Sequence record: GU595417
Length of the DNA stretch: 43,984 nt
Direction: 5' to 3' (one strand)
Source of the DNA: Escherichia phage UAB_Phi78
Position numbers and translations under genes: made by a program. A model generated the notes under the pieces. The model was given only the letters and a program-made list of their open reading frames with translations. It did not search any database and had not been told where the DNA came from. Shown here piece after piece: positions 6,493 to 23,198 of this stretch (position 1 is its first letter; every line of letters starts with the position of its first letter).

Positions 6493-6903
6493 ATGCGTAA
6501 ATCATTAGCTCAAATGGTAGAGCAAGCAGGTTATACTATACATGCAGACGGTACTATCACAGGTAAGCGCGGAAATATCTTGAAGCCTTGGCTTCAGACT
6601 TCCGGCTATCAGGTTGTGAACATTGTGTTCAAGAAGGGAACAAGAACCACAACACTTGTGCATCGTATTATCGCAAGTAAATACTGCCCATGCTCAGATC
6701 AACTAGCTAATGATGTAAACCACAAGGACGGAGACAAGACCAATAACGTCTCCTCTAATCTGGAATGGATTACACGCAGACAGAACCGCAACCACTACCT
6801 TGGGTTTGAAGATTACATGACACTTACGGCAAACGATGCCCGTAGAAAGAACAATGAGCGTACTATCGCTCGTCGTAAATTACTTAAACAACTTAATAAG
6901 TGA
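6493..6903 (+). CDS. HNH homing endonuclease
   Basis: AAGGAGGT RBS; HNH-family motif VNHKDGDKTNN...NLEWIT; free-standing between the RNAP and primase genes. Confidence 0.8.
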   Translation: MRKSLAQMVEQAGYTIHADGTITGKRGNILKPWLQTSGYQVVNIVFKKGTRTTTLVHRIIASKYCPCSDQLANDVNHKDGDKTNNVSSNLEWITRRQNRNHYLGFEDYMTLTANDARRKNNERTIARRKLLKQLNK

Positions 6904-6913
6904 GGAATAAATC

Positions 6914-7039
6914 ATGCGTACCAACTTCGAGAAAATCCGTAAAGCTAACCGTGACTTTGACATGGAAGTTAAGGGGAAGAAGTTGAACAAAGTCAAGCGC
7001 GACCGTTCTGCTAAACGTGCGTGGATGGAGGCTGCATAA
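6914..7039 (+). CDS. hypothetical small basic protein (41 aa)
   Basis: ATG with GAGGAATAA RBS; Lys/Arg-rich; below the track cutoff. Confidence 0.35.
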   Translation: MRTNFEKIRKANRDFDMEVKGKKLNKVKRDRSAKRAWMEAA

Positions 7040-7040
7040 C

Positions 7041-9020
7041 ATGGCGATTGTGAACAACATTCCTTGCCCTGAGTGCCAACGCAACGGACATGATAAATCG
7101 GGCAATCACCTCATGATATTTGAGGATGGCGCTGGTTACTGTAACCGTGGTCACTTCCATAATAGTGGTCGGCCCTACTACCACAAACCCGAAGGTGGCA
7201 TAGAAATCACTGAGCTTCCTATTACTGGCAACATTAAGTATACACCTTCACAGTTCCGTGAACTTGAAAAGGAAGGGAAGATAAGCGACCCTAAGCTGCG
7301 CGCCATTGCACTTGGCGGTATGCGTATGAAAGATCGTTGGGAGGTGATGAATGACGAAGAAAGGGCGGAGCAAGAAGCAGAATGGCAGCTTGACGTTGAG
7401 TGGTTCCTTGAACTTAAAAGGAAGAACCTTGTATCACGACACATTCGCGGAGACATTTGCGCCCTCTATGATGTCCGAGTCGGTCATGATGGAGAAGGCA
7501 AGGTTAACAGGCATTACTACCCTCGCTTCGAAGGTGGCAAACTTGTAGGCGCTAAGTGCCGGACGCTACCTAAAGACTTTAAGTTTGGACACCTAGGTAA
7601 ATTGTTCGGCAACCAAGACATGTTCGGCATGAACACAATGTCTAACGTGTTGGACAAGGGACGCCGTAAAGATACCCTGCTCATAGTAGGTGGTGAACTG
7701 GATGCCTTGGCCGCACAACAGATGCTTCTGGATTCTGCCAAAGGCACGAAGTGGGAAGGGCAACCCTATCATGTGTGGTCTATCAACAAGGGCGAGGCTT
7801 GCCTTGAAGAGATCGTGCAGAACCGTGAGCACATCTCACAATTCAAGAAGATTATGTGGGGCTTCGACGGCGATGAGGTAGGGCAGAAGCTGAACCAACA
7901 AGCGGCCCGCCTATTCCACGGTAAGTCTTATATCCTTGAGTACCCTGCTGGCTGCAAGGACGCTAACAAGGCGCTTATGGCTGGCAAATCTAAGGAGTTC
8001 GTCGATGCATGGTTCAATGCCAAGTCGTCAGATGAGGTCTTCGGTAGCCAGATTAAATCCATCGCATCTCAAAGGGATAAGCTGAAGGCTGCACGACCGG
8101 AACCGGGATTGTCTTGGCCTTGGCCTAAGCTGAACAAGATAACCCTTGGCATCCGTAAGCATCAGCTAATCATCGTCGGCGCTGGTTCTGGTGTAGGTAA
8201 GACGGAGTTCCTCCGCGAAGTAGTGAAGCATCTCATTGAAGAACACGGTGAATCTGTCGGTATTATCTCTACGGAAGACCCGATGGTTAAGGTCTCCCGC
8301 GCATTCATTGGTAAGTGGATAGATAAGCGTATTGAACTACCTCCAACCAATGACCCAAGGGAAGATGGCTACCGTGAGGTATTCGACTACACGGAGGAAG
8401 AGGCCAACGCTGCTATCGACTACGTTGCTGACACTGGTAAGCTGTTCGTGGCTGACCTTGAAGGTGACTATTCAATGGAGAAGGTAGAGCAGACTTGCCT
8501 TGAGTTCGAGGCAATGGGTATTTCCAACATCATCATTGATAACTTAACAGGAATTAAATTAGATGAACGAAATTTTGGTGGTAAAGTTGGTGCGCTTGAT
8601 GAGTGCGTCAAAAGAATCGGCACTATCAAAGACCGACATCCGGTTACTATCTTCCTTGTCTCGCACCTTACACGTCCTTCGGGGCAACGTACCTCACACG
8701 AAGAAGGTGGCGAGGTTATCCTTTCTGACTTCCGAGGCTCAGGAGCTATCGGATTCTGGGCTTCTTACGCCTTGGGGATTGAGCGTAATACAAGGGCTGA
8801 AACGCTTGATGAAAGGACTACCACGTACATCTCATGTGTCAAAGACCGAGACCAAGGCATCTACACTGGCACTAAGGTGATGCTTAAAGGCGATGTTAGT
8901 ACAGGTAGATTGATGGAACCACAAGCACGTACTAGGTCATTTGATACAGGCGCTCCAAAAGAGCAAGCTGTACCTGATGAATTAGGTGACACTATAGAAG
9001 ATAACACACAGGAGTTTTAA
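7041..9020 (+). CDS. DNA primase/helicase (T7 gp4-like)
   Basis: N-terminal zinc ribbon CPECQ...CNRGHFH, Walker A GAGSGVGKT, and an acidic C-terminal tail ending ...DNTQEF. The track ORF begins at an upstream GTG (7017); ATG 7041 with GGAGG upstream is preferred. Confidence 0.93.
   Translation: MAIVNNIPCPECQRNGHDKSGNHLMIFEDGAGYCNRGHFHNSGRPYYHKPEGGIEITELPITGNIKYTPSQFRELEKEGKISDPKLRAIALGGMRMKDRWEVMNDEERAEQEAEWQLDVEWFLELKRKNLVSRHIRGDICALYDVRVGHDGEGKVNRHYYPRFEGGKLVGAKCRTLPKDFKFGHLGKLFGNQDMFGMNTMSNVLDKGRRKDTLLIVGGELDALAAQQMLLDSAKGTKWEGQPYHVWSINKGEACLEEIVQNREHISQFKKIMWGFDGDEVGQKLNQQAARLFHGKSYILEYPAGCKDANKALMAGKSKEFVDAWFNAKSSDEVFGSQIKSIASQRDKLKAARPEPGLSWPWPKLNKITLGIRKHQLIIVGAGSGVGKTEFLREVVKHLIEEHGESVGIISTEDPMVKVSRAFIGKWIDKRIELPPTNDPREDGYREVFDYTEEEANAAIDYVADTGKLFVADLEGDYSMEKVEQTCLEFEAMGISNIIIDNLTGIKLDERNFGGKVGALDECVKRIGTIKDRHPVTIFLVSHLTRPSGQRTSHEEGGEVILSDFRGSGAIGFWASYALGIERNTRAETLDERTTTYISCVKDRDQGIYTGTKVMLKGDVSTGRLMEPQARTRSFDTGAPKEQAVPDELGDTIEDNTQEF
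7640..7655 (+). repeat. 16-bp near-palindromic element embedded in the primase coding sequence
   Basis: gtctaacgtgttggac, again translated as SNVLD. Confidence 0.7.
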
Positions 9021-9121
9021 ATGGATGAACTAGGCTTTTGGTTGTTCATGGTTGTATGTATCGTTATGATTAACCTAGACAAACTTGCCATGCTAATTAA
9101 GTAGTGTCCTTATCAGGGCTT

Positions 9122-9137
9122 GTCCAACATGTTGGAC
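9122..9137. repeat. 16-bp element, perfect-palindrome variant
   Basis: gtccaacatgttggac is its own reverse complement. Confidence 0.7.
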
Positions 9138-9176
9138 AGGCTCTTATTAAGCACATTAACTAACTGGAGATTAACT

Positions 9177-9869
9177 ATGAAGCTTAACTTAAAAGTAGGT
9201 GAACGTGTACGTAATATTCGTGTTGGATCTGCACGCGCAGGGTGGCAAGGTGCCGTCATCGTTGTAACAGAGGAGGAGTACGAAGTTCGATGGGATTGCG
9301 GAGAGAAGCAGGCTTATCTTCGTCGCTTCTCACACAAGAACCTTGAGCGCACACATGTAGCAAGCAAATGCACCTGTGTACACGATGAACTGTGTGACCG
9401 CTGTGCTCGTCAAGTCAGTAAGGCACTGACATTCATGGAGCGGTATGGTGCAGGTCACAAGACACTTGCGGAAGCAGCGTGGAATGTGCTCACGATCGAA
9501 CGCTCTAATGGTCGCAAGGTACTGAAGCGTGAGCGTCGTAATGTGATCACAGGCCAGACACAAGCAGAAATGCAAGCACAGTACGGGCCAGCAAAGGGCG
9601 GTATCATATTCAACACCCGTACATTAGGGCGCAGTACAGGTCAAGCCTTTCGCATCTTAGGCGAGGCCATGTGTAATCCTGGTATTGCTATACGTTATGA
9701 AGATGTAGACCATGCAATATCTGAAGGTACGAGTAATAGAGTTGTATTGAACAGACACTTTGAACAGGTGTTACGTGACACTATAGGTGAGCGCAAGGGC
9801 TTTACCTTTGAGCGCGGCCATGTTACATTTAACCCTATCGTTACGGAGGAAACCTATGTCACGCAATGA
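9177..9869 (+). CDS. hypothetical protein (230 aa)
   Basis: ATG 9177 with GGAG RBS; the track ORF starts upstream at 9120 inside the palindromic element, which is unlikely to be the true start. Confidence 0.6.
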   Translation: MKLNLKVGERVRNIRVGSARAGWQGAVIVVTEEEYEVRWDCGEKQAYLRRFSHKNLERTHVASKCTCVHDELCDRCARQVSKALTFMERYGAGHKTLAEAAWNVLTIERSNGRKVLKRERRNVITGQTQAEMQAQYGPAKGGIIFNTRTLGRSTGQAFRILGEAMCNPGIAIRYEDVDHAISEGTSNRVVLNRHFEQVLRDTIGERKGFTFERGHVTFNPIVTEETYVTQ

Positions 9870-10062
9870 CAGCAAGCACAGCCTGAAGTTCCTTGAGCAG
9901 CATGAAGACCTTGCAGCAAAGGTAACTAACCAAGCATTCCTGTTTGCACAACTCACACTGGCTGAAGCTAAGAAGAACAGCCTTACTCGTGAACAGATTA
10001 TTAAGGAAGGTTGCCGTGGTGCAACTCGTCGTATTAAGAACCACAGAAGTGGTGCTCGCTAG
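9856..10062 (+). CDS. hypothetical protein (68 aa)
   Basis: ATG 9856 with GGAGGAA RBS; start overlaps the end of the upstream gene. Confidence 0.5.
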   Translation: MSRNDSKHSLKFLEQHEDLAAKVTNQAFLFAQLTLAEAKKNSLTREQIIKEGCRGATRRIKNHRSGAR

Positions 10063-10079
10063 TTAATAAGTCGTGGCTT

Positions 10080-10095
10080 GTCTAACATGTTGGAC
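10080..10095 (+). repeat. 16-bp near-palindromic element
   Basis: gtctaacatgttggac. Confidence 0.7.
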
Positions 10096-10220
10096 AGGTC
10101 ACTATCATATTAATTGGAGGAATTACTGTATGATTAATTACGATTCTGATTGGGATTACGAAGATTCATTACAGCCTGAACCGGAGACACCAGACTACAA
10201 GTTTGAAACGGAGGCAATGT

Positions 10221-10439
10221 ATGAAGACTATTAAACTAAGTAAAGTTTGCTCTTGCGGTAAAGGTTATCGCAGTCGTATAGATGGTAAGTGTGGGCATTG
10301 CAGATCTAAGAAAGAGGCTGCTTTGTTTGATAAGTACCACCATGAATTAGCCTATAACTATCCTCATCTCACACCTAATTCTTTATTAGGAATTGGCTAT
10401 AGGGTTAAATACTTTGGAGCAGTCTATGAAATCAATTGA
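10221..10439 (+). CDS. small zinc-ribbon-like protein (72 aa)
   Basis: ATG 10221 with GGAGG RBS; cysteine pairs CSCGKG...CGHC. Confidence 0.5.
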   Translation: MKTIKLSKVCSCGKGYRSRIDGKCGHCRSKKEAALFDKYHHELAYNYPHLTPNSLLGIGYRVKYFGAVYEIN

Positions 10440-12972
10440 TTGGAAGAGGGAGGCGGAAGGTCGTATCCTAGTGATGGATGCGGAAGCTAAAGGTCTGCTT
10501 GATGCTATCCGCTACGGGCATCGTGAAGATGTGCATATCATTTGCTGCATGGACTTGCTTACTACCGAGGAGTTCCTCTTCTTTGACCCATATGAGATGC
10601 GTGACCCTGAAGCAAGAGAACGCCTGAAAGAGTGGGAAGGCCATCAAGATGGTGACTTGGTTGATGGTGTTAACTTCCTGAAGTACTGTGAAGCTATCGT
10701 GTCACAGAACTTCTTAGGATATGACGGCCTGCTCTTTGAGAAAGCATTCCCTAATATCTGGAAAGGCTTTAACTACACAGAGAAGCGCGGCAAGGGCAGG
10801 CTCCGTGCCGACCTGTGTCCTGTGCGGGTCATGGACACACTGGTGATGAGCCGCCTGTTAAACCCCGATAGACGCCTCCCTCCGCAAGCATACGCCAAAG
10901 GTATGGGTAACGTCGCCCCTCACTCTATTGAGGCGCATGGTATCCGTATCGGTCGCTATAAGCCTGAGAACGAGGACTGGTCTAAGCTGACAGACCACAT
11001 GGTTCATCGTGTACGTGAGGACGTGGCGATCGGTCGTGACCTGTTCCTGTGGCTATATAATGGCGAGTGGATGGAGCACAAGCGGCGTGGTGTCAATCCA
11101 CGGACTGGCCTTGGCATTGAGACGGCCTTTCACATGGAGTCTATTGTAGCACTGGAGATGTCCCGTCAAGCGGAGCGTGGCTTCCGGTTGGATATAGACA
11201 AGGCACTGGCACGATGCCAGGAACTTGACCAGAAGATCGACGAGACGGTTGCAGCATTCCGACCTCACATGCCAATGCGTATCAAGTCTAAACCCTTCAA
11301 ACCTCAAGAGAAGCAGGAGCAGGTAGATGCAGCAAACTCATTTAGTTTACAGAATCAGATTGGTGTTACGCTTGGAGCCGATGCTTTCATTCATGCCGAG
11401 CGGCGCTCCGATAGGAAGACTGTATGGTCAGTCACTACTAAGTCAGGTGATTGGTCGGCTACTGTCAAGAAAGACTTCCCTCACATCCGAGGAAACATCA
11501 ATGATACTCCGAGCATTAAACACATCGGGCCATATACACCTGTCACCTTCGAAGATATCCCGCTTGGCAACCGAGATACCGTTAAGCAGGTTCTGTATGA
11601 CTTTGGGTGGCGGGGTGTTGAGTTCAACGACACTGAACAATCTTATCTGGACGAGCATGGAGTGTTGCCTAAACCTTGGAGTGGAAAGATAAATGAGAAG
11701 TCCCTTACTTTATGGCAGGAAAGGGCTGCACGTGAAGGTAAGTCAGTCCCTGATTGGTGCTTGGGTATCGCTGCATGGTACATACTCGTTTCCCGTCGTG
11801 GTCAGATCCTCAACCGTGGTGATGTTGAAACCTTCGATGCAACGGGGCGTTGGCCCTCGCAAGCTGGTGTACGAAAGTGTCGCGGCCTTATACCTGTAGC
11901 CTTTAATAAGGAGCTAGGTATCAATGCACAGACGTACTACGAAACGTATGGCTACTGGCCTACGTCCGATAAGGATGACGGAGAGTGGCGTGTTCCCGCT
12001 GTTGCTATTTCTATTGGCACTTCTACGTTCCGTATGCGTCACAGGAATGTGGTTAACATCCCCGCTCGTGGCCTTTACCCTCTTCGTGATTTATTCATAG
12101 CTGGTAAAGGTAAGATGATTCTTGGTTGTGACGGTGCAGGTCTGGAGTTGCGTGTACTCTCGCACTTCATGAACGACCCTGAGTACCAAGAGATCGTCCT
12201 GCATGGTGACATTCATACACATAACCAGCTCAAGGCTGGCCTGCCTAAGCGTGATATGGCGAAGACCTTTATCTACGCATTCCTGTATGGCTCAGGTATT
12301 GCCAACCTCGCTGCGGTATGTGGCGTAACTGAAGATGAGATGAAGGAAGTTGTTGCACGCTTTGAGATAGAGCTACCTTCATTGGCAAGACTTCGTGAGA
12401 ATGTTATTGCGGCAGGTAATCGATATGGATACCTCCAGGCACCTGACGGTCATTGGGGCCGCATCCGTATGAGCGGTGGTGTACTTAAAGAGCACACCAT
12501 GCTTAACGTATTACTCCAGATGACAGGCTCATTGTGCATGAAGTATGCATTGGTTAAGGCCTTTGCAGTCATGCGCCGTGAAGGTGTGGCACTAGATGAC
12601 ATGGGAAATCCGTGTGGCGTGGCTAACGTACACGATGAAATCCAGATGGAAGTACCAGAAGAGGAGGTGTTGTACCTTGACTATGAATTGCCTTTCACGC
12701 TGGAAGGTTTCGAAAATGAGAAGCAAGCCATCAAAGCTGTGTTCGACCCTGAAGAGAAACGTGTGCATGTGGACTCAGAGGGTCGTATGTGGTCTGCTGC
12801 TAACTTGGTTGAAGTTGATGCTGCTGCTGGTGTGCTGCGTTGTCAGCGTCGCTACCACAGGGCTGGTCATATTATCGCTGACGCCATGACTTGGGCTGGC
12901 AAGTATCTTAACATGCGCTGCCCTATGGCTGGCGAATATAAAATAGGTGCAAGTTGGAAGGAGACACACTAA
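10426..12972 (+). CDS. DNA polymerase (family A, T7 gp5-like)
   Basis: Pol I motif B KTFIYAFLYG, motif C VHDE, and an N-terminal exonuclease-like region. ATG 10426 with GGAG RBS is preferred over the track start at 10393. Confidence 0.93.
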   Translation: MKSIDWKREAEGRILVMDAEAKGLLDAIRYGHREDVHIICCMDLLTTEEFLFFDPYEMRDPEARERLKEWEGHQDGDLVDGVNFLKYCEAIVSQNFLGYDGLLFEKAFPNIWKGFNYTEKRGKGRLRADLCPVRVMDTLVMSRLLNPDRRLPPQAYAKGMGNVAPHSIEAHGIRIGRYKPENEDWSKLTDHMVHRVREDVAIGRDLFLWLYNGEWMEHKRRGVNPRTGLGIETAFHMESIVALEMSRQAERGFRLDIDKALARCQELDQKIDETVAAFRPHMPMRIKSKPFKPQEKQEQVDAANSFSLQNQIGVTLGADAFIHAERRSDRKTVWSVTTKSGDWSATVKKDFPHIRGNINDTPSIKHIGPYTPVTFEDIPLGNRDTVKQVLYDFGWRGVEFNDTEQSYLDEHGVLPKPWSGKINEKSLTLWQERAAREGKSVPDWCLGIAAWYILVSRRGQILNRGDVETFDATGRWPSQAGVRKCRGLIPVAFNKELGINAQTYYETYGYWPTSDKDDGEWRVPAVAISIGTSTFRMRHRNVVNIPARGLYPLRDLFIAGKGKMILGCDGAGLELRVLSHFMNDPEYQEIVLHGDIHTHNQLKAGLPKRDMAKTFIYAFLYGSGIANLAAVCGVTEDEMKEVVARFEIELPSLARLRENVIAAGNRYGYLQAPDGHWGRIRMSGGVLKEHTMLNVLLQMTGSLCMKYALVKAFAVMRREGVALDDMGNPCGVANVHDEIQMEVPEEEVLYLDYELPFTLEGFENEKQAIKAVFDPEEKRVHVDSEGRMWSAANLVEVDAAAGVLRCQRRYHRAGHIIADAMTWAGKYLNMRCPMAGEYKIGASWKETH

Positions 12973-13070
12973 TGCAAACAGTTATTATCATAGGAGTTGT
13001 ATTATTATTCGCGGTAGTATTTTGGGCCTTCTCAGGTACTGACCCAGATTGTGATGGTAATTACGATTAA
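12972..13070 (+). CDS. small hydrophobic peptide (32 aa)
   Basis: ATG overlaps the polymerase stop (TAATG); AAGGAGA 9 nt upstream; single predicted transmembrane segment; below the track cutoff. Confidence 0.3.
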   Translation: MQTVIIIGVVLLFAVVFWAFSGTDPDCDGNYD

Positions 13071-13099
13071 GTTAGATTCACCTAAATTCTTCTTACTTG

Positions 13100-13120
13100 A
13101 TTTAGGTGACACTATAGAAG
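13100..13120 (+). promoter_or_regulatory. SP6-type phage promoter (consensus)
   Basis: Exact atttaggtgacactatagaag. Confidence 0.9.
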
Positions 13121-13184
13121 GACAGCCAAGGTAATCTAGGTTATTAAGGCAGTATAGGTAATTAGGTAATATAGGAGAATAAAT

Positions 13185-13562: not shown

Positions 13563-13581
13563 TTAGGTGACACTGTAGAAC
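13560..13581 (+). promoter_or_regulatory. SP6-type phage promoter (variant)
   Basis: taattaggtgacactgtagaac. Confidence 0.7.
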
Positions 13582-13641
13582 AATAGGTCGATTAAGTTCG
13601 GCCTATGATTGTATCGTGTAACCAAAAGGAGGAATTAATTA

Positions 13642-14451: not shown

Positions 14452-14468
14452 TTAATCAAGGAGGTTTA

Positions 14469-15161: not shown

Positions 15162-15168
15162 TTAACAT

Positions 15169-15202: not shown

Positions 15203-15226
15203 GTAATAGATATTGGAGAATAAATT

Positions 15227-15538: not shown

Positions 15539-16476
15539 ATGGGGACATGATTCCCTACATCATTGGTTACACTATCAATGAGATGACACTTGTCCGAGCT
15601 ATGACTCGTGTTAAGTCAGGACAAGTAGAGCGCATTGAAGATACACCTGAGTGTAAGCAAGCTTGCGATCGCGTAAACTCCATGCTTAACTCTTGGGTGT
15701 ATGGCGCAGAATGTGATGCTGCACGCATCTTCCTCACAAAGTCAGATGCTAACTTCCGCTTACGCTTGGCCTTCACCAAGCCCTACAAGGGTACACGAAA
15801 GGCAGACAAACCTCCATTCTTCTATGAGATGCGACAACATTTGATAAGTGTGCATGGTGCAGAACTGGCAGATGGAGAGGAAGCAGATGACCTTATGAGC
15901 ATCGCACAATGGGACAGTCATCGCCGCTTCTTGCAAGAGGTAGGTAACGAGTTCTCAATAGGAAGCCCTGAGCATAAGGTGTTCTCCGATACTGTTATTG
16001 TATCTGCGGATAAAGACCTAATGATAGTACCGGGATGGCACTTGCAACCGGGAAGCGAGATGAAATGGGTTGAACCTATGGGCTGGCTTGACCTTCGCCG
16101 TAAGGCTAACGGGCAGGTCAAAGACCTTAAAGGTGCAGGCCTCAAGTTCTTCTATGCACAGATGATTATAGGTGACGACATAGATAACTATGCAGGCATC
16201 CCCGGACGTGGGGCCAAGTATGCTTATAACCTCCTTGATAGTTGCAAGACTGAGAAGGAACTCTATATGGCTGTGCTTGGTGCCTACAAGTCTAAGTTCG
16301 GAGAAAGTCAAGTCAAGCTAAAGAACCATAGAGGAACATACCGCATCGGCAAGGCTTTTGATCTTATGCTAGAATGTGGTCGCTTGGCCCATATGGCAAG
16401 GTTCAAAGGCGACATCTGGCGTGCGGATAAGAATCCAATTGTGTGGGGAGATGATGATTCATGGCAATCAGATTGA
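15445..16476 (+). CDS. 5'-3' exonuclease (FEN family, T7 gp6-like)
   Basis: AAGGAG RBS; N-terminal LIDGD and H3TH-type motif GDDIDNYAGIPGRG. Confidence 0.85.
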   Translation: MSRPNFEFGATVSEDSSIILWPTEGKRIALIDGDMIPYIIGYTINEMTLVRAMTRVKSGQVERIEDTPECKQACDRVNSMLNSWVYGAECDAARIFLTKSDANFRLRLAFTKPYKGTRKADKPPFFYEMRQHLISVHGAELADGEEADDLMSIAQWDSHRRFLQEVGNEFSIGSPEHKVFSDTVIVSADKDLMIVPGWHLQPGSEMKWVEPMGWLDLRRKANGQVKDLKGAGLKFFYAQMIIGDDIDNYAGIPGRGAKYAYNLLDSCKTEKELYMAVLGAYKSKFGESQVKLKNHRGTYRIGKAFDLMLECGRLAHMARFKGDIWRADKNPIVWGDDDSWQSD

Positions 16477-16871
16477 AGGCTTCGGAGGTAGCTGACTACA
16501 AGAAGGAGTTACTTGAGAAGCAGAAATGGAAATGCCCTTTATGCGGTGGTAGCCTCAAGGCTGTCACTGCAATTAACCGTGTACTTGATCATGACCATGA
16601 GACAGGCTTCTGCCGTGCAGTAGTTTGTCGAGGTTGCAATGGTGCGGAGGGTAAGATCTTAGGTGTTATTTCTGGTTATGGTAAGGCAGGTAACAATCGC
16701 TACTTCCAACTGAAGTGGCTGGAGAACTTGTATAATTACTGGAAGTTACATCAAACACCTCAGACTGATAAGCTGTATCATAAGCATAAGACTGAGGCGG
16801 AGAAGCGCGAGGCTCGCAATCGCAAGGCTCGCTTGGCATACGCAAGAAAGAAGGAGGGTAAAGTTGGGTAA
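16461..16871 (+). CDS. endonuclease VII-like Holliday-junction resolvase
   Basis: CPLCGG...DHDHETGFCRAVVCRGCNGAEG zinc-binding pattern of the T4 endonuclease VII family. Confidence 0.8.
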   Translation: MAIRLKASEVADYKKELLEKQKWKCPLCGGSLKAVTAINRVLDHDHETGFCRAVVCRGCNGAEGKILGVISGYGKAGNNRYFQLKWLENLYNYWKLHQTPQTDKLYHKHKTEAEKREARNRKARLAYARKKEGKVG

Positions 16872-17871
16872 GCTACGCTCACTGTATAAAGACTCCGAGG
16901 TACTTGATGCAATAGAGCAGGCTACCGACGAGAAAGGTAATGTTAATTATAACGAGATGGCTAAGGTATTGTCTGCTCATCCGGTCGGTAAGAAGATTAC
17001 ACGACAGCTTGCTCGTTACTGGCATGGTCAATTCATGCATACCAAGAAGAATGGTGACTACTACCAGACTCTTTCTCAGGAGGATAAGCGACTCAAAGAA
17101 GCACGTAAGCTCAGGACTCCTGACCGCTATGAGGATCTGGCTATTGTACCATTGCCTGACTCGCCTCATAGAAGTGTACTGGTAATCCCTGACACTCATG
17201 CACCTTATGAACACCCAGACACCTTGGAGTTCTTGGCAGCAGTGGCGGCACGCTTCCGTCCTGATACGGTGGTGCACTTAGGTGATGAGGCAGACAAACA
17301 TGCCCTGTCATTCCACGATAGTGACCCTAACCTTGACTCCGCTGGTATGGAGTTAGAGAAGGCCCGTGTCTTCATGCACAAGCTGCACCGGATGTTTCCG
17401 GTCATGCGCCTGTGCCACTCCAACCACGGCTCTATGCACTTCCGCAAGGCAAGCGCCAAGGGTATTCCTGTCCAATACCTGCGCACCTACCGTGAAGTCT
17501 TCTTCCCGCATGGAGGCGGAGATCAGTGGGATTGGCAGCATACCCATGTTCTGGAGTTACCTAATGGAGAGCAGGTTGCATTCAAGCACCAGCCAGCAGG
17601 TTCTGTGTTAGCAGATGCGGCACATGAGCGAATGAATCTGGTGTGTGGTCACTTGCATGGCAAGATGTCAGTAGAGTATGCGCGCAACACCCATGAGCAG
17701 TATTGGGCTGTGCAAGGTGGCTGTCTTATTGATGAGTCATCTCGCGCATTTGCTTATGGACGTGAGTCCAAGTACAAGCCAGCACTAGGTTGCGTGGTGA
17801 TTGTAGAAGGTGTACCTCAGATTGTCCCAATGCAGACCAATGCAGAAGGCCGTTGGGTTGGAAAGATTTAA
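16864..17871 (+). CDS. calcineurin-like metallophosphoesterase
   Basis: Motifs DTHAP, GDEAD and SNHG. Apparent TTG start 6 nt after AGGAGG; an internal ATG start cannot be excluded. Confidence 0.65.
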   Translation: MGKLRSLYKDSEVLDAIEQATDEKGNVNYNEMAKVLSAHPVGKKITRQLARYWHGQFMHTKKNGDYYQTLSQEDKRLKEARKLRTPDRYEDLAIVPLPDSPHRSVLVIPDTHAPYEHPDTLEFLAAVAARFRPDTVVHLGDEADKHALSFHDSDPNLDSAGMELEKARVFMHKLHRMFPVMRLCHSNHGSMHFRKASAKGIPVQYLRTYREVFFPHGGGDQWDWQHTHVLELPNGEQVAFKHQPAGSVLADAAHERMNLVCGHLHGKMSVEYARNTHEQYWAVQGGCLIDESSRAFAYGRESKYKPALGCVVIVEGVPQIVPMQTNAEGRWVGKI

Positions 17872-17886
17872 GTGACACTATAGAAC
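17866..17886 (+). promoter_or_regulatory. SP6-type phage promoter (one mismatch)
   Basis: atttaagtgacactatagaac, overlapping the stop of the upstream gene. Confidence 0.85.
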
Positions 17887-17971
17887 AAAGGGCTAGGTAA
17901 GACTTTACTTGCTGGCGTATCCAAACGGTATTTCACTAGACCTTGATTGTATAGTGAATGGAGGAATTAAT

Positions 17972-18421
17972 ATGGCTAAATTTAAAGTAGGTGATGAAGT
18001 TAAGCGTAAAGAAGATGACTATAGTGAAGCATGGCTTGATGGATGTAGAGAGGGTAGATTCAGTCCAAACGATGTCATGGTTGTGGAAAAGGTATCAGTA
18101 TCTGGTTCTTTGATTACACTCCGAGGTGTGACTGGGGCTTGGGTTGCTGAGAGTTTTGAACTGTTTCATAAGAAGGAAGACTCTTGTGACATGGTAATGA
18201 ACCCTAAACACTATGAATTCTTCGAAGGAGTAGAGGCAATCACAATCATTGCCCGTAGCATGACCGAGAAGCAATTCGCTGGTTACTGTATGGGTAACGC
18301 TTTGAAGTATCGTCTACGTGCAGGTAAGAAGCTCAATACTGAGGAAGATCTGAAGAAAGCAGACTACTACAAAGACCTGTTCCAGAAGCATCGCCATGAA
18401 TGTATCGATGAGGATCTCTAA
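17972..18421 (+). CDS. hypothetical protein (149 aa)
   Basis: ATG 17972 with GGAGGAA RBS; the track ORF starts further upstream at 17909. Confidence 0.55.
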   Translation: MAKFKVGDEVKRKEDDYSEAWLDGCREGRFSPNDVMVVEKVSVSGSLITLRGVTGAWVAESFELFHKKEDSCDMVMNPKHYEFFEGVEAITIIARSMTEKQFAGYCMGNALKYRLRAGKKLNTEEDLKKADYYKDLFQKHRHECIDEDL

Positions 18422-19368
18422 TGAACATATTCGAATTCCTAGGACTACCTGAAGATCATCGCCCCAAACCTGTTATGCTGGTTAAGCATAGGGATGAAGT
18501 GCCAGAAAGCAAACTTACACTCCCGGTTTACGCACAGGTGAAACGGGATGGAATCTTTAGTGCTACAGTTGTGCGTTCTGATGGGACTGTAGGTGTCTTT
18601 GGTCGTACTGGTAAAAAGCTGGCTAACGTCGAACAACTGGAAGCATCTTTTACAGGTTGGCCTGCTGGTGTCTACCTAGGCGAGTTGCAGTCTATGGCTG
18701 TTGATATCTACCTTGAGGCGCTTTCAGGTGTGGTGAATCCAAACAGGACTGAGCCTCTTGACTTCATAGGCCAGCAGATTAAAGATAACTTATACATTGA
18801 CTTCTTTGACATGCTGACTATTAAGGCATTCATTGAAGGGCAGACGGATGTTACATTCTTAAAGCGATACGAAGCTCTATGTCGTAGGTTGAAGAATTGC
18901 CTTCCACCTAAGAATGCAATCCTAACTATCACACCTTGTCACACCGAGCAAGAGGTGGAGGCGTTTGCACAGAAGCACATCGATGCAGGAAGAGAAGGTG
19001 CAGTCTTCAAGTTAGACTGTGACTATGAATCTGGTCACAAAGGATTCCGACAAACCAAGATTGTACGCATGGTGTCCTATGACTTAACATGCATTGGTTG
19101 GGAAGAAGGGAAAGGTAAATACAAAGGTAAGGTAGCTAATCTTATCTTTAAATGGAAGGGTGGCAAGACAATCAAGGCTATGCTTGGTCGTGGTTGGACA
19201 CATGAAGATGCTACCCGTATGTATCACGATATTAAACACGGTGGTGAACTGAACGTCATCGGTAAGATATTCGCTGTCAAGGCACTCCAAGAATCTAGCA
19301 AGGGAGTCCTGCGACTTCCCAAGGCTGGAGAGTTACGCCATGATAAGGAGGAGCCTGATGTCTTTTGA
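18421..19368 (+). CDS. ATP-dependent DNA ligase
   Basis: Adenylation motif KRDG (VYAQVKRDGIFS); start overlaps the upstream stop. Confidence 0.85.
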   Translation: MNIFEFLGLPEDHRPKPVMLVKHRDEVPESKLTLPVYAQVKRDGIFSATVVRSDGTVGVFGRTGKKLANVEQLEASFTGWPAGVYLGELQSMAVDIYLEALSGVVNPNRTEPLDFIGQQIKDNLYIDFFDMLTIKAFIEGQTDVTFLKRYEALCRRLKNCLPPKNAILTITPCHTEQEVEAFAQKHIDAGREGAVFKLDCDYESGHKGFRQTKIVRMVSYDLTCIGWEEGKGKYKGKVANLIFKWKGGKTIKAMLGRGWTHEDATRMYHDIKHGGELNVIGKIFAVKALQESSKGVLRLPKAGELRHDKEEPDVF

Positions 19369-19555
19369 TTCAATGAAAGCGACGAAGGCAGTTGAGGTAG
19401 CAGAAGCTATCTTTGATATGCTGTCTTGTGGGATTGAAGTCCCTTATACACTTCTGTCTGATGCAGAAGATTTAGGTCTGTCTGTGGAAGCTATCCGCGA
19501 GAAAGTGGAGGAACTGTATGGCGACGACCAAGAAGAAGCCGACTATCAATATTGA
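19358..19555 (+). CDS. hypothetical acidic protein (65 aa)
   Basis: In-frame ATG 19358 with AGGAGG RBS 7 nt upstream; the track ORF starts at 19340. Confidence 0.45.
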   Translation: MSFDSMKATKAVEVAEAIFDMLSCGIEVPYTLLSDAEDLGLSVEAIREKVEELYGDDQEEADYQY

Positions 19556-19694
19556 AGGTTGGGATATGCTGGAGAATATTATCCTAGCTCCATCAAGACC
19601 TAGACCAGATAAGTCACACGAAGAGTTAGTATGGGATGAAGCCAAGCGCTATATCCTGTCTTGTATCAAGCAGCAGTTTGTGGTGCAGCCATGA
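19518..19694 (+). CDS. hypothetical protein (58 aa)
   Basis: ATG with GGAGG RBS; overlaps the neighbouring ORFs in another frame and ends in an ATGA junction with the next gene; below the track cutoff. Confidence 0.3.
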   Translation: MATTKKKPTINIEGWDMLENIILAPSRPRPDKSHEELVWDEAKRYILSCIKQQFVVQP

Positions 19695-20152
19695 TAAGAC
19701 AGGCTTGCTTCCTAGATATCCCTGAGATAATTAACTTAGGGAACAGATATGTAGAAGAGGAAGTCAAGGTAGTTAAGCACCATTCAGCTACATGGGATGC
19801 AGATCAAAGCGCACATCACCTTTGTGCATCCCTTACCAGTAAGGATTTATTCTTATGGGTGGCTGTAGAAGATGGTGTTATCATAGGGTTCCTGTGGGCG
19901 GCTGCACACATCATGGCACCTTGGTCTCCGGCACTTGTGGCTTCTGACCTACTCTTCTACATCATACCAGAAAAGCGAGGGTCTCTTGCTGGTGTGCGCT
20001 TGCTCAAAGCTTACAAGTCTTGGGCTAAGGAACGCGGCTGCATAGAGGCAAGACTGTCTATCGCATCTGGTATTAATGAGGAACGTGTTGGGCGGATGTA
20101 TAATCGATTAGGGTTTACTCCGTTCGGTACAGTGTATAACTTGAAGTTTTAA
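19691..20152 (+). CDS. GNAT-family N-acetyltransferase
   Basis: Acetyl-CoA-site-like EKRGSLAGVRLL and C-terminal MYNRLGF motif; ATG 19691 overlaps the upstream stop (the track starts at TTG 19661). Confidence 0.55.
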   Translation: MIRQACFLDIPEIINLGNRYVEEEVKVVKHHSATWDADQSAHHLCASLTSKDLFLWVAVEDGVIIGFLWAAAHIMAPWSPALVASDLLFYIIPEKRGSLAGVRLLKAYKSWAKERGCIEARLSIASGINEERVGRMYNRLGFTPFGTVYNLKF

Positions 20153-20161
20153 GGAGATAAC

Positions 20162-20371
20162 ATGGGTGTAGTTAAGAAGGCATTTCAAGCGGTAGGTCTG
20201 GCACAAAAGGCGCCTCGCATTGAGGCAGCTAAGGTTCCAGCACAGCAACTTGAGCGGCAGACTGAGGTTAAATCTGAAGACATCCAGATTGGACAAGATG
20301 ATGATGCTGCGGCATCTGCTAAAGGTAAGCGTGGACTCGTTCGTCCTGTAGCCTCTAGCTTAGGAGTTTAA
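20162..20371 (+). CDS. hypothetical protein (69 aa)
   Basis: AAGGAGATAA RBS; sits immediately upstream of the portal gene. Confidence 0.55.
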   Translation: MGVVKKAFQAVGLAQKAPRIEAAKVPAQQLERQTEVKSEDIQIGQDDDAAASAKGKRGLVRPVASSLGV

Positions 20372-20372
20372 T

Positions 20373-21920
20373 ATGCAAGACACTATACTTGAGTATGGTG
20401 GTCAGCGATCGAAGATACCTAAACTGTGGGAGAAGTTTTCTAAGAAACGCAGCCCTTACCTTGATAGGGCAAAGCATTTCGCTAAGTTAACACTCCCATA
20501 CCTGATGAACAACAAAGGAGACAATGAGACTTCGCAGAATGGCTGGCAGGGTGTAGGTGCACAAGCCACCAATCATCTAGCTAATAAGCTAGCACAAGTG
20601 TTATTCCCTGCGCAACGATCATTCTTCCGTGTTGATTTAACAGCAAAAGGTGAGAAGGTATTAGATGACCGAGGACTGAAGAAGACTCAGTTAGCAACCA
20701 TCTTCGCTCGCGTAGAAACCACTGCAATGAAGGCACTGGAGCAAAGACAGTTCCGCCCAGCCATAGTTGAAGTGTTCAAGCACTTAATCGTAGCAGGTAA
20801 TTGCCTGTTGTACAAACCAAGCAAAGGTGCGATGAGTGCAGTACCCATGCACCATTATGTAGTTAACCGTGACACTAACGGTGACTTAATGGATGTAATC
20901 CTTCTGCAAGAGAAAGCGCTACGTACATTCGACCCAGCAACACGCATGGCGATAGAAGTTGGCATGAAGGGTAAGAAATGTAAAGAGGATGATAACGTCA
21001 AGCTATACACCCATGCTCAATACGCAGGTGAAGGTTTCTGGAAGATTAACCAATCTGCTGACGACATCCCTGTAGGCAAGGAGAACCGCATCAAGGCCGA
21101 GAAGCTACCGTTCATTCCACTGACATGGAAGCGCAGTTATGGTGAGGATTGGGGCCGACCTTTAGTTGAGGATTATTCTGGTGACTTGTTTGTTATCCAG
21201 TTCTTATCCGAGGCAGTGGCCCGTGGGGCTGCGCTGATGGCTGACATCAAATACCTGATTCGCCCCGGCTCCCAAACTGATGTTGATCACTTTGTTAACT
21301 CAGGGACAGGCGAGGTAATCACAGGTGTAGAGGAAGACATTCATATTGTTCAGTTAGGCAAGTATGCAGACCTGACACCTATCAGTGCTGTGCTGGAGGT
21401 ATACACTCGACGCATCGGTGTTATCTTCATGATGGAGACCATGACACGCCGCGATGCTGAACGTGTTACTGCCGTAGAGATCCAACGCGACGCGCTTGAG
21501 ATTGAGCAGAACATGGGTGGCGTATACTCCCTGTTTGCCATGACCATGCAGACACCTATTGCTATGTGGGGCTTGCAAGAGGCTGGTGATTCCTTCACTA
21601 GTGAACTGGTAGATCCTGTGATTGTAACAGGTATTGAAGCATTAGGTCGCATGGCAGAATTGGATAAGCTGGCTAACTTTGCACAGTATATGTCCTTGCC
21701 TCAAACATGGCCTGAACCTGCACAACGTGCAATCCGGTGGGGCGACTACATGGATTGGGTACGTGGTCAGATATCTGCTGAACTCCCATTCCTCAAATCT
21801 GAGGAGGAGATGCAACAAGAGATGGCGCAGCAAGCACAGGCCCAGCAAGAGGCTATGCTTAACGAAGGTGTGGCTAAGGCTGTACCGGGTGTTATTCAAC
21901 AAGAAATGAAGGAGGGTTAA
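20373..21920 (+). CDS. head-to-tail connector (portal) protein
   Basis: 515 aa; position and size match T7 gp8; TAGGAG RBS. Confidence 0.9.
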   Translation: MQDTILEYGGQRSKIPKLWEKFSKKRSPYLDRAKHFAKLTLPYLMNNKGDNETSQNGWQGVGAQATNHLANKLAQVLFPAQRSFFRVDLTAKGEKVLDDRGLKKTQLATIFARVETTAMKALEQRQFRPAIVEVFKHLIVAGNCLLYKPSKGAMSAVPMHHYVVNRDTNGDLMDVILLQEKALRTFDPATRMAIEVGMKGKKCKEDDNVKLYTHAQYAGEGFWKINQSADDIPVGKENRIKAEKLPFIPLTWKRSYGEDWGRPLVEDYSGDLFVIQFLSEAVARGAALMADIKYLIRPGSQTDVDHFVNSGTGEVITGVEEDIHIVQLGKYADLTPISAVLEVYTRRIGVIFMMETMTRRDAERVTAVEIQRDALEIEQNMGGVYSLFAMTMQTPIAMWGLQEAGDSFTSELVDPVIVTGIEALGRMAELDKLANFAQYMSLPQTWPEPAQRAIRWGDYMDWVRGQISAELPFLKSEEEMQQEMAQQAQAQQEAMLNEGVAKAVPGVIQQEMKEG

Positions 21921-21923
21921 TTA

Positions 21924-22826
21924 GTGGCCTTTGAATTTGTAGAACCGACCAATGAAACTACAGCTGCTCCGGCTGCTGAAGAGAACAAGGAGGTGACGAA
22001 TGATGTTGCTGGTGCTGACGCTGGTACTACTGGCACTGACGTACAGAATGGTGCAGACGATAAAGGCAATGAGGACACCGGAGGAGAAGCTGTTGGACAG
22101 CCTTCAGGAGAAGGAGATGGTGAACAGAATGGTGAATCTAAGCCAGATGGTGCCACGGATGAGGAAGCGCGATACTTCTTCGGTGAACACGAAGTAACCA
22201 TTGAAGTACCTGATGATGTGACCGAAGCCCTCAAAGAGAAGGGCATCGATGCTATGCAGGTTGCTCGTGAGTTGTATGGTGAAGGCGGTAAGTTTGAACT
22301 GTCAGAAGAAACCAAGCAGAAACTGTATGATGCATTTGGTAAGTTCGCAGTAGATGCATACCTGTCAGGACTAAAGGCACAGAACGAAACCTTCTTCCTC
22401 CGTGAAGAGGCTGCCGCCAAGGAAGCTGAAGCGGCAAACGCACAGCGCTACACGGATATTGCCAAGGAAGTTGGTGGTGACGAAGGTTGGAGCCGTCTGG
22501 AGGAGTGGGCGCTTGATACTCTTTCTGATGAAGAACTGGAAGCATTTAATGCAGTGATGCAGTCAGGCAACCAGTACCTCCAGCAGTACGCTGTGCGAGA
22601 GTTAGAAGGTCGCCGTAAGGCTGCACAGGGTGACGACAAGCCCAACCTGATTGAACCAACGGCTACCGCTGCTGCATCGGAAGACAATGCTCCCCTAAGC
22701 CGGGAGCAGTACATCCGAGAGATTGCACAGTTAGGCCAGAAGTATGGACGTGACCGCAAAGGGATGGCTGAAGCACAGGCACGTCTGGATGCACGTCGCC
22801 GCGCAGGTATGGCTCGCGGTCTTTAA
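21924..22826 (+). CDS. capsid assembly scaffolding protein
   Basis: 300 aa, highly acidic; GTG start after GAAGGAGGG; lies between portal and capsid as in T7 gp9. Confidence 0.8.
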   Translation: MAFEFVEPTNETTAAPAAEENKEVTNDVAGADAGTTGTDVQNGADDKGNEDTGGEAVGQPSGEGDGEQNGESKPDGATDEEARYFFGEHEVTIEVPDDVTEALKEKGIDAMQVARELYGEGGKFELSEETKQKLYDAFGKFAVDAYLSGLKAQNETFFLREEAAAKEAEAANAQRYTDIAKEVGGDEGWSRLEEWALDTLSDEELEAFNAVMQSGNQYLQQYAVRELEGRRKAAQGDDKPNLIEPTATAAASEDNAPLSREQYIREIAQLGQKYGRDRKGMAEAQARLDARRRAGMARGL

Positions 22827-22832
22827 TTGCCT

Positions 22833-22853
22833 ATTTAGGTGACACTATAGAAG
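22833..22853 (+). promoter_or_regulatory. SP6-type phage promoter (consensus)
   Basis: Exact atttaggtgacactatagaag. Confidence 0.9.
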
Positions 22854-22901
22854 GGAGGTACGCCTCCCTAACATATCAACTTGATTTATAAGGAGATTCT
22901 G

Positions 22902-23198
22902 TTGGAACTGTGGCTTCCAGTTAAAGGGTATGAAGGCCGCTATTCTGTGAGTAACAGAGGTGTTGTCGTCAGCCATTTGACAGGCAAGCCACTGACACAG
23001 AGTTGTAATACCTTCGGATATAAACAAGTCAGCCTACACAAAGATGGTAAGCAAGTGAGCAAGACTGTTCATAGACTTGTAGCCGAGGTTTTCATTCCTA
23101 ACCATAATAGCTTGCCTTTCGTCAATCACAAAGATGAAGACAAGACAAACAACGACGTTAGCAACCTAGAATGGTGTACTTGTCAGTACAATACCTAG
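22902..23198 (+). CDS. HNH homing endonuclease (second copy)
   Basis: WLPVKGYEGRYSVSNRG N-terminal motif and VNHKDEDKTNNDVSNLEW HNH motif. Probable TTG start 7 nt after AAGGAG; the track starts at 22881. Confidence 0.7.
   Translation: MELWLPVKGYEGRYSVSNRGVVVSHLTGKPLTQSCNTFGYKQVSLHKDGKQVSKTVHRLVAEVFIPNHNSLPFVNHKDEDKTNNDVSNLEWCTCQYNT

What the first reader, a model, noticed from the sequence alone, without database searches (positions are those of the whole stretch)
6493..23198. Two paralogous free-standing HNH homing endonuclease genes
The genes at 6493-6903 and about 22902-23198 share a nearly identical HNH motif (VNHKDGDKTNN..SNLEWIT and VNHKDEDKTNNDVSNLEWCT). Each sits directly downstream of an SP6-type promoter, between essential genes (RNAP/primase and scaffold/capsid). 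Such insertions are mobile selfish elements that often differ between otherwise near-identical phages, and the second appears to use a non-ATG start.
Basis: partly seen in the sequence, partly recalled or inferred. Interest (0 to 1): 0.45.

Follow-up and report, generated by a model that had tools for sequence, protein, structure and literature searches.

The report
Two HNH homing endonuclease genes, one broken
This SP6-like Salmonella phage (UAB_Phi78) carries two ordinary, already-annotated selfish homing-endonuclease genes, each wedged between a resident promoter/ribosome-binding site and the next gene; one is intact and conserved, and the other is cut short by a premature stop codon.

Summary
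Both ORFs, the shared motif, both SP6-type promoters and the TTG start are real. The window is phage UAB_Phi78, whose GenBank record already calls both products "HNH homing endonuclease".

- The second gene does not end naturally at 23198. It is a 153-codon gene (22902-23363) carrying an in-frame amber (GAG->TAG at 23196). Relatives pSL2, BP12B and GRNsp03 have it intact, and GRNsp51 has a different, independent amber.
- The two genes share only 38% identity over 86 aa and have different architectures. They are independent acquisitions, not duplicates.
- Both promoters are resident ones, also present in phages that lack the inserts.

**Evidence for mobility**
- Both genes are present or absent among close relatives.
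- Each insert sits between a resident ribosome-binding site and the ATG of the next gene (gene 1.1; major capsid) and brings a replacement ribosome-binding site.
- Insert-linked changes cluster in the first codons downstream: four synonymous changes in capsid nt 4-12, and a Thr-codon insertion in gene 1.1.
- Each gene is far less diverged than its flanks: HNH2 0.4-0.65% against 3-6%, and the VEc3/PhiNW-E1 orthologues of HNH1 0.7% against 8-9%.
- HNH1 is under strong purifying selection (omega about 0.05).

Both match the nicking enzyme I-HmuI. No activity was tested. This is an ordinary, known kind of element.

The parts
6447..6467 (+). Resident SP6-type (middle) promoter ATTTACGTGACACTATTGAAC that drives HNH1, gene 1.1 and primase
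   Evidence: 3 mismatches to consensus. Also present in the insert-free phages SP6, Kenya-K30 and BP12B.
6479..6485 (+). Ribosome-binding site AAGGAGG used by HNH1, 7 nt before the ATG. It occupies the position of the gene 1.1 ribosome-binding site in insert-free phages.
   Evidence: Sequence. Junction comparisons.
6493..6903 (+). HNH1: intact 136-aa I-HmuI-like HNH_3 endonuclease gene (GenBank ADW95215.2)
   Evidence: omega 0.047 against the VEc3 orthologue. Among Salmonella phages in the collection, found only in pSL2.
6902..6906 (+). Replacement ribosome-binding site (GAGGA) for gene 1.1, carried at the 3' end of the HNH1 insert and overlapping its stop codon
6914..7039 (+). Gene 1.1 homologue (41 aa). 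The insert-linked allele has an extra Thr codon at position 3 (MRTNFEK against MRNFEK), so the HNH1 target probably lies at its 5' end.
   Evidence: Pfam Phage_1_1, E 2.5e-12. Alignments.
22833..22853 (+). Resident late SP6 promoter with perfect consensus, for the major capsid gene. It now transcribes HNH2 first.
   Evidence: Identical in SP6 and Kenya-K30, which lack HNH2.
22890..22895 (+). Original capsid-gene ribosome-binding site AAGGAG, now serving the TTG start of HNH2
22902..23198 (+). HNH2 N-terminal open frame (98 codons, TTG start): NUMOD4 + HNH_3 motif, ended by amber TAG 23196-23198 (GAG in relatives). GenBank ADW95244.1.
23199..23363 (+). Same-frame continuation of HNH2 (54 codons + TAA). 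It encodes the C-terminal putative DNA-binding domain (FTFISPEG...SHKGW) and is not translated as part of the enzyme in this phage.
   Evidence: Only a non-significant similarity to the I-HmuI C-terminal domain. A 39-aa piece is annotated separately in GenBank.
23362..23368 (+). Duplicated or replacement ribosome-binding site AAGGAGG for the capsid gene, supplied by the 3' end of the HNH2 insert
23376..23387 (+). First four capsid codons. They hold 4 synonymous differences (capsid nt 4, 5, 9, 12) fixed between insert-bearing and insert-free phages, and are the putative HNH2 target/immunity site.
   Evidence: 4 of the 6 fixed differences in 1100 nt fall here. Alignment.

Best explanation
The window holds two independently acquired free-standing homing endonuclease genes of the I-HmuI-like HNH_3 family. 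Each sits inside the 5' leader of a resident transcription unit. It uses the resident phage promoter and ribosome-binding site, and supplies a new ribosome-binding site for the displaced downstream gene.

**Inferred mechanism.** In a mixed infection with an insert-free relative, the enzyme nicks or cuts the relative's DNA near the empty site, around the start of gene 1.1 for HNH1 and the start of the capsid gene for HNH2. Recombinational repair then uses the insert-bearing genome as template and copies the gene across. The insert-bearing genome is protected by the insertion itself and by nearby sequence changes.

**HNH1 (6493-6903)** is intact, under strong purifying selection and presumably active.

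**HNH2 (22902-23363)** is cut at codon 99 by an amber codon in this phage. By sequence alignment, the stop falls two residues after the Asn that aligns with Asn96 of I-HmuI. All of the C-terminal domain is lost. It is therefore most likely a decaying relic, the degeneration stage of the homing cycle.

**Shown here:** gene identity, insertion anatomy, presence/absence among relatives, the divergence contrast with the flanks, and the nonsense mutations.

**Inferred only:** cleavage activity, target sites, nick versus double-strand cut, and the inactivity of the truncated protein.
For: **Family**
- Pfam HNH_3 is above threshold for both genes, and NUMOD4 for HNH2.
- PHROG HNH endonuclease families match at E 1e-32 and 4e-42.
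- Direct sequence matches to the solved I-HmuI structure 1U3E: E 1.3e-18 for HNH2 and 2.5e-11 for HNH1.
- The motif residues H76, N88 and N97 are invariant in the seven-sequence alignment.

**Free-standing**
- No Rfam intron or other RNA family reaches threshold around either gene.

**Presence or absence**
- HNH1 is in UAB_Phi78 and pSL2 only among 14 Salmonella records. Orthologues sit at the same locus in 3 of about 74 Vectrevirus/Escherichia records and in 2 Proteus phages.
- HNH2 is in 5 Zindervirus genomes and absent from SP6 and the four Kenya phages.

**Junctions**
- Both inserts lie exactly between a ribosome-binding site and the ATG.

**Changes next to the insert**
- 4 of the 6 fixed insert-plus/insert-minus differences in 1100 nt of capsid gene lie in nt 4-12, and all are synonymous.
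- A Thr-codon insertion in gene 1.1 is shared by the insert-bearing UAB_Phi78, VEc3 and G9.

**Recent lateral spread**
- HNH2 differs by 2-3 of 462 nt between the UAB_Phi78 and BP12B lineages, while the flanks differ by 3.1% and 5.9%.
- HNH1 of VEc3 and PhiNW-E1 differs by 3 of 417 nt, while the flanking RNAP and primase differ by 7.9% and 9.0%.

**Selection**
- HNH1 omega is 0.047, equal to the primase gene.

**Decay of HNH2**
- Independent ambers: E99* here and Q33* in GRNsp51. Changes among the 5 copies are 2 nonsense, 4 missense and 1 synonymous.

**I-HmuI background**
- It is a nicking homing enzyme with an N-terminal catalytic domain and a C-terminal DNA-binding domain (PMC3017599, PMC3428280).
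Against: - No enzymatic or genetic test exists for these proteins.
- Between genera, HNH1 is as diverged as its flanks: pS 0.62 against 0.61 for primase. Long-term vertical residence with repeated precise loss therefore explains part of its patchy distribution, and strong purifying selection is also what a domesticated function would give.
- The insert-minus group for HNH2 comprises only two lineages (SP6, Kenya), so the 'fixed difference' statistic is not phylogenetically independent.
- Both enzymes have Asn where I-HmuI has Asp before the catalytic His (alignments). Its effect on activity is unknown.
- The amber rests on a single public sequence. The exact 98-aa product occurs on one contig only, although ORF39 was already 98 aa in the 2016 version of the genome.
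Confidence: 0.8

Rival explanations
1. HNH1 is a long-resident, domesticated nuclease that benefits the phage. Possible roles are excluding or degrading competing phage genomes, or helping replication or recombination near the putative origin downstream of the RNAP gene. On this view it is not a purely selfish homing element.
For: - Orthologues occupy the same locus in three genera (Zindervirus, Vectrevirus, Acadevirus). Their divergence equals that of the flanking core genes, and omega is 0.047.
- It lies just downstream of a repeat-rich, hairpin-rich region after the RNAP gene.
Against: - It is absent from most members of each genus, including close relatives with 97-98% identical flanking proteins, so it is dispensable.
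- Within Vectrevirus it is about 10-fold less diverged than its flanks, which indicates lateral movement.
- Purifying selection is also expected for an actively homing gene.
Confidence: 0.12
2. The amber codon in HNH2 is not a real inactivation. It could be a sequencing or assembly error, or it could be read through or suppressed in the propagation host so that full-length enzyme is still made.
For: - Only one public sequence carries it.
- It is a single G->T change, and the downstream frame is otherwise intact with no further damage.
Against: - The 98-aa ORF appears both in the 2016 published annotation and in the later revised record.
- An independent amber plus three missense changes in GRNsp51 show that this gene does decay in nature.
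- No suppressor context is known, and none was tested.
Confidence: 0.15
3. The genes are packaging-associated HNH proteins (HK97 gp74-like terminase cofactors) or general DNA-degrading nucleases rather than site-specific homing enzymes.
For: HNH-family proteins in phages can have such roles (PMC3592412, PMC5304195, listed).
Against: - Neither gene is next to the terminase genes, which lie some 13 kb downstream on the map of the near-identical phage pSL2.
- Neither has the CxxC zinc sites of that class.
- The best structural relative is the site-specific nicking homing enzyme I-HmuI.
- Both genes are dispensable in relatives.
Confidence: 0.03

Closest known systems
I-HmuI (Bacillus phage SPO1; PDB 1U3E), a nicking HNH homing endonuclease
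   Same: Direct sequence homology: E 1.3e-18 for HNH2 over residues 4-115, and 2.5e-11 for HNH1 over residues 16-104. HNH2 has the same order of N-terminal beta-rich DNA-contacting region, then the HNH motif, then a C-terminal domain ending in HKGW (HKGY in I-HmuI).
   Different: I-HmuI is encoded inside a group I intron in a DNA polymerase gene, whereas these two genes are free-standing between genes. Both have Asn instead of Asp before the catalytic His. HNH1 lacks the NUMOD4 start and the C-terminal domain and instead has a short basic tail. HNH2 is truncated here.
Free-standing homing endonuclease genes of T-even phages (seg and mob genes; 'intronless homing')
   Same: Intergenic position between conserved genes, patchy distribution among relatives, and an inferred target in the neighbouring gene with linked flanking polymorphisms. 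The comparison with these genes rests on general knowledge, but the pattern itself is seen here.
   Different: The seg genes belong to the GIY-YIG family. The mob genes are HNH genes but are not close relatives. The host is a T7/SP6-type podophage, and the inserts sit precisely between a ribosome-binding site and a start codon.
Annotated HNH endonucleases of other Molineuxvirinae: VEc3 gp09, PM 93 gp09, BP12B gp09 and gp31
   Same: VEc3 gp09 (90% aa identity) and PM 93 gp09 (75%) are orthologues of HNH1 at the same locus. BP12B gp31 is the intact orthologue of HNH2 (98.7%).
   Different: BP12B gp09 is a different NUMOD4-HNH gene inserted on the other side of gene 1.1.

Membership tests
HNH_3 / I-HmuI-like HNH endonucleases | HNH (beta-beta-alpha-metal) motif detectable by profile, with the conserved His and Asn residues | tested here: met
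   Pfam PF13392 scores 33.1 bits (HNH1) and 29.5 bits (HNH2) against a cut-off of 24.8. 1U3E matches both. NH-K-D...NN...NLEW.T...N is invariant.
HNH_3 / I-HmuI-like HNH endonucleases | N-terminal NUMOD4-type DNA-contacting region | tested here: inconclusive
   HNH2 has NUMOD4 at E 1.2e-11, above threshold. HNH1 has no NUMOD4 hit, but it aligns to I-HmuI from residue 15 and lacks the W..I.GYEG start.
HNH_3 / I-HmuI-like HNH endonucleases | C-terminal DNA-binding domain, as in the two-domain I-HmuI | tested here: not met
   In this window HNH2 stops at codon 99, before that domain. Even in the intact orthologue its similarity to the I-HmuI C-terminus is not significant (2.6 bits). HNH1 has only a 35-residue basic tail.
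HNH_3 / I-HmuI-like HNH endonucleases | Predicted beta-beta-alpha-metal fold | tested here: inconclusive
   The AlphaFold2 model from a 7-sequence alignment had pLDDT below 50 over residues 67-117, so no fold search was run.
Homing endonuclease gene (mobile, site-specific) | Presence/absence polymorphism at one conserved site among related genomes | tested here: met
Homing endonuclease gene (mobile, site-specific) | Evidence of lateral spread: the gene is much less diverged than its flanks | tested here: met
   HNH2 0.4-0.65% against 3.1% and 5.9%. HNH1 orthologues in VEc3 and PhiNW-E1 0.7% against 7.9% and 9.0%. This was not seen between genera.
Homing endonuclease gene (mobile, site-specific) | Site-specific cleavage of the insert-free allele and resistance of the insert-bearing allele | not testable with these tools
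   Only indirect evidence: clustered insert-linked changes immediately downstream of both inserts.
Intron-encoded homing endonuclease | The gene lies within a self-splicing group I or II intron that interrupts a host gene | tested here: not met
   No intron family appears in Rfam at E<=1. The flanking genes are complete and uninterrupted.
Terminase-associated HNH (HK97 gp74-like) | Adjacent to the terminase genes or cos site, with a CxxC zinc-binding HNH | tested here: not met
   The terminase genes lie about 13 kb downstream of HNH2, on the map of the 98%-identical phage pSL2. Neither protein has CxxC pairs.

The most novel reading that the evidence does not exclude
HNH1 may be more than a transient parasite. 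It could be an old, selectively maintained resident of the RNAP-to-primase gap of SP6-like phages in three genera, giving its carrier an advantage in mixed infections (marker exclusion of insert-free competitors). The RNAP-gene 1.1-primase interval would then be a dedicated arena where different HNH genes (HNH1-type upstream of gene 1.1, NUMOD4-type downstream) compete. In addition, the truncated 98-aa HNH2 product might be retained as a DNA-binding fragment acting on the capsid-gene leader.
Probability: 0.1. Interest if true: 0.45.

Novelty: already known. Interest (0 to 1): 0.22.

Why it matters
The wider importance is small, because free-standing HNH homing endonuclease genes are common in T7/SP6-like phages and these two are already labelled as such in the public record.

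**Practical value**
- It corrects the gene model. HNH2 is a 153-codon gene interrupted by an amber codon, not a 98-aa gene plus a 39-aa gene.
- UAB_Phi78 is a biocontrol and therapy candidate, so it is useful to know which of its accessory nucleases are intact.
- The set of near-identical phages gives a ready natural experiment for measuring homing, target sites and decay in an SP6-type phage. HNH2 is intact in pSL2, BP12B and GRNsp03, amber in UAB_Phi78 and GRNsp51, and absent from SP6 and the Kenya phages.

Tried and rejected
- **Structure prediction.** The restored HNH2 was modelled from a shallow 7-sequence alignment. Mean pLDDT was 58.8 and the HNH core was below 50. The model was judged unusable and no fold search was run. 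The deep homologue searches that would give a better alignment were not spent, because the direct sequence match to 1U3E already settles the family.
- **Group I intron or other RNA family.** None was found around either gene. Only sub-threshold miRNA-like hits to a hairpin at 6309-6405 appeared.
- **Further genes of this type.** A motif scan of all six frames found only these two. The endonuclease VII-like core gene near 16.5 kb belongs to a different class and is conserved in all relatives.
- **Base composition as a sign of foreign origin.** Both genes are about 42.5% GC against 47.4% for the genome, only about 1.3 SD low, so this is not decisive.
- **Recent transfer of HNH1 between genera.** Rejected: synonymous divergence from VEc3 equals that of the primase gene.
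- **Literature.** The 2016 UAB_Phi78 genome paper lists the 98-aa ORF as 'Unknown', has no ORF at the HNH1 position, and does not discuss HNH genes in this phage. No paper on free-standing homing endonucleases in Autographiviridae turned up with the terms tried.
- **Alternative start at TTG 22881 (105 aa).** Rejected: it has no ribosome-binding site, it would include the ribosome-binding site inside the coding sequence, and that exact protein is absent from the databases.


Full report
**Identity of the window**

The window is 98-99.8% identical to Salmonella phage vB_SenAt-pSL2, species Zindervirus UAB78. Exact protein look-ups place the 136-aa and 98-aa products on a 43,984-bp contig of phage UAB_Phi78. 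They are ADW95215.2 and ADW95244.1, both named 'HNH homing endonuclease'. A 39-aa C-terminal fragment (QXM18132.1) carries the same name. The 2016 genome paper (PMC4837284) lists the 98-aa ORF as 'Unknown', has no ORF at the HNH1 position and does not discuss these genes.

**Check of the observation**

- ORF 6493-6903 (ATG, 136 aa) and an ORF ending at 23198 both exist.
- Both pass Pfam HNH_3. HNH2 also has NUMOD4.
- Both hit PHROG HNH families and the solved nicking homing endonuclease I-HmuI, 1U3E, at E 2.5e-11 and 1.3e-18.
- The SP6 promoter consensus occurs 9 times in the window against 0 expected. Two of these sites are at 6447-6467 (3 mismatches) and 22833-22853 (perfect).
- The HNH2 start is TTG 22902, six bases after AAGGAG. 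Intact orthologues are annotated from the same base.

Three corrections follow.

1. 23196-23198 is a premature amber codon. pSL2, BP12B and GRNsp03 read GAG (Glu99) there. The frame continues for 54 more codons to TAA 23361-23363, giving a 153-aa protein in those phages.
2. HNH1 is followed by a gene 1.1 homologue (6914-7039, Pfam Phage_1_1) and only then by the primase gene.
3. The two proteins share 38% identity over 86 aa and differ in architecture. They are family members acquired separately, not a duplicated pair.

**Anatomy of the insertions**

*HNH2*
- Insert-free SP6 and Kenya-K30 read: promoter, stem-loop, TATAAGGAGATTATAATAC-ATG(capsid).
- Insert-bearing phages read: ...TATAAGGAGATT-CTG-TTG(HNH2)...ACATAAGGAGGTTTATAC-ATG(capsid).
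- The insert is therefore about 460 bp. It takes over the capsid ribosome-binding site and carries a second copy for the capsid gene.

*HNH1*
- The cleanest comparison is in the E. coli relatives.
- VEc3 and G9 (with insert) and EC120 and K1-5 (without) are nearly identical on both sides.
- The insert begins right after the gene 1.1 ribosome-binding site (GGAG) and ends with a new ribosome-binding site before gene 1.1.
- UAB_Phi78 has the same arrangement.

Both promoters are resident promoters, present whether or not the insert is there. Rfam finds no intron, so both genes are free-standing.

**Distribution**

*HNH1*
- Among Salmonella phages in the collection it occurs only in UAB_Phi78 and pSL2.
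- Orthologues lie at the same locus in Escherichia phages VEc3, vB_Ec-G9 and PhiNW-E1 (about 90% aa identity) and in Proteus phages PM 93 and PM 116 (75%).
- About 70 other Vectrevirus/Escherichia records have the empty site.

*HNH2*
- It is present in UAB_Phi78, pSL2, BP12B, GRNsp03 and GRNsp51, and absent from SP6 and four Kenya phages.
- Its nearest relatives elsewhere are only about 50% identical and sit at other loci.

**Evidence of mobility and of a nearby target**

- *HNH2 against its flanks.* Between the UAB_Phi78 and BP12B lineages HNH2 differs at 2-3 of 462 nt (0.4-0.65%). The 1100 nt upstream and downstream differ by 3.1% and 5.9%.
- *HNH1 against its flanks.* Between VEc3 and PhiNW-E1, HNH1 differs at 3 of 417 nt (0.7%). 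The flanking RNAP and primase sequences differ by 7.9% and 9.0%. Both genes have therefore spread laterally within their gene pools recently.
- *Capsid start.* Of 6 differences fixed between insert-bearing and insert-free phages in the first 1100 nt of the capsid gene, 4 lie in nt 4-12. All are synonymous (AGT/AGC against TCT, ACC against ACG, CCA against CCG), and about 70 identical bases follow.
- *Gene 1.1 start.* The insert-linked alleles of UAB_Phi78, VEc3 and G9 share an extra Thr codon at position 3. The VEc3 allele is otherwise almost identical to insert-free EC120.

These are the expected marks of target sites that span the downstream start codons, and of changes that protect the carrier. 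That reading is an inference, and the insert-free group for HNH2 comprises only two lineages.

**Selection and decay**

- HNH1 against VEc3 gives dN 0.062, dS 1.3 and omega 0.047. This is the same as the primase gene (omega 0.05), with equal synonymous divergence (pS 0.62 against 0.61).
- HNH1 is therefore functional and has not crossed between genera recently. Its lineage has tracked each genus while moving within it.
- HNH2 shows the opposite pattern. Among five copies the changes are 2 nonsense (E99* here, Q33* in GRNsp51), 4 missense and 1 synonymous.
- By sequence alignment to I-HmuI, the amber falls two residues after the Asn that aligns with Asn96. It removes the whole C-terminal part.
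- I-HmuI is described as having an N-terminal catalytic and a C-terminal DNA-binding domain (PMC3428280) and as nicking a degenerate site of about 24 bp (PMC3017599).
- The 98-aa product is therefore most likely inactive, but this is an inference.
- The catalytic roles of His75 and Asn96 in I-HmuI are recalled from memory of the 2004 structure paper, not from a tool result.

**Mechanism proposed**

- HNH1 is transcribed from the middle promoter, with a strong ribosome-binding site and an ATG start, at the time of DNA replication.
- HNH2 is transcribed from the strongest late promoter but uses a TTG start, which probably limits its level.
- In co-infection the enzyme nicks or cuts the empty allele, and repair copies the insert.
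- In UAB_Phi78 only HNH1 should still do this. HNH2 is a relic that still carries the 'immune' capsid 5' sequence.

**Rivals**

- *Domesticated HNH1.* This is favoured by deep conservation at one locus and low omega. It is weakened by the gene's absence from most relatives and its lateral spread.
- *Amber as an error or a suppressed codon.* Only one public sequence carries it. However, it persisted across two record versions, and GRNsp51 shows independent decay.
- *Packaging-type HNH.* Rejected on position and motif.

**Verdict**

This is a correct but ordinary finding. Both genes are already annotated, and the element type is well known. The useful additions are:
- the corrected HNH2 gene model, an amber-interrupted 153-codon gene;
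- the insertion anatomy, in which each insert takes over a resident ribosome-binding site;
- quantitative evidence of recent spread;
- two independent inactivations.

Noticed in passing
window 6253-6269 and 6424-6440; 6317-6346; 6309-6405: The gap after the RNAP gene holds several repeats. There is a perfect 17-nt direct repeat GTCTAACGTGTTGGACA, each copy just upstream of an SP6-promoter-like sequence. There are three tandem 10-mers (AGTAATAGGT) and a long hairpin (-33.9 kcal/mol, z -3.0). The region is 95% conserved in SP6. Its position resembles the T7 primary replication origin with its tandem promoters (comparison from memory).
   Followed up: partly
L006 (BP12B) 2404-2850; L012 (PM 93) 3746-4490; window 7041-7088: The RNAP-to-primase gap is a hotspot for different HNH genes. 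BP12B has a distinct NUMOD4-HNH (148 aa) between gene 1.1 and primase, and the first ~48 nt of its primase gene are strongly diverged from UAB_Phi78 and SP6. Proteus phage PM 93 has both an HNH1 orthologue and a second, apparently fragmented NUMOD4-HNH at this locus.
   Followed up: partly
L014 (GRNsp51) 1201-1662: The GRNsp51 copy of HNH2 has its own amber (CAG->TAG, codon 33) plus three missense changes in the C-terminal domain. This is an independent inactivation of the same gene.
   Followed up: yes
window ~16461-16868: This is an endonuclease VII-like gene (CxxC...HDH...CxxC). It is a third His-metal-finger nuclease but is conserved in SP6, BP12B and pSL2, so it is a core gene and not a mobile one.
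   Followed up: partly
window 22853-22868: A stem-loop GGGAGG-tacg-CCTCCC lies at the very 5' end of the late capsid transcript. The stem is conserved in phages with and without the insert, while the loop varies (CG/AT/GT).
   Followed up: no
L007 (Kenya-K30) 2429-2521: Kenya-K30 has an extra ~120 bp between gene 1.1 and primase. It encodes a 30-aa hydrophobic peptide (MEPIEFLVIAGALQAIGLFGYAIYSLLKSL) that is absent from UAB_Phi78 and SP6. This is another variable insert at the same hotspot.
   Followed up: no
window 7017 versus 7041: The mechanical ORF list starts the primase/helicase at GTG 7017, overlapping gene 1.1. Relatives annotate the ATG that corresponds to window 7041. The 2016 paper's coordinates are offset by 65 to 120 nt from this version of the genome, which shows the record was revised.
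   Followed up: no
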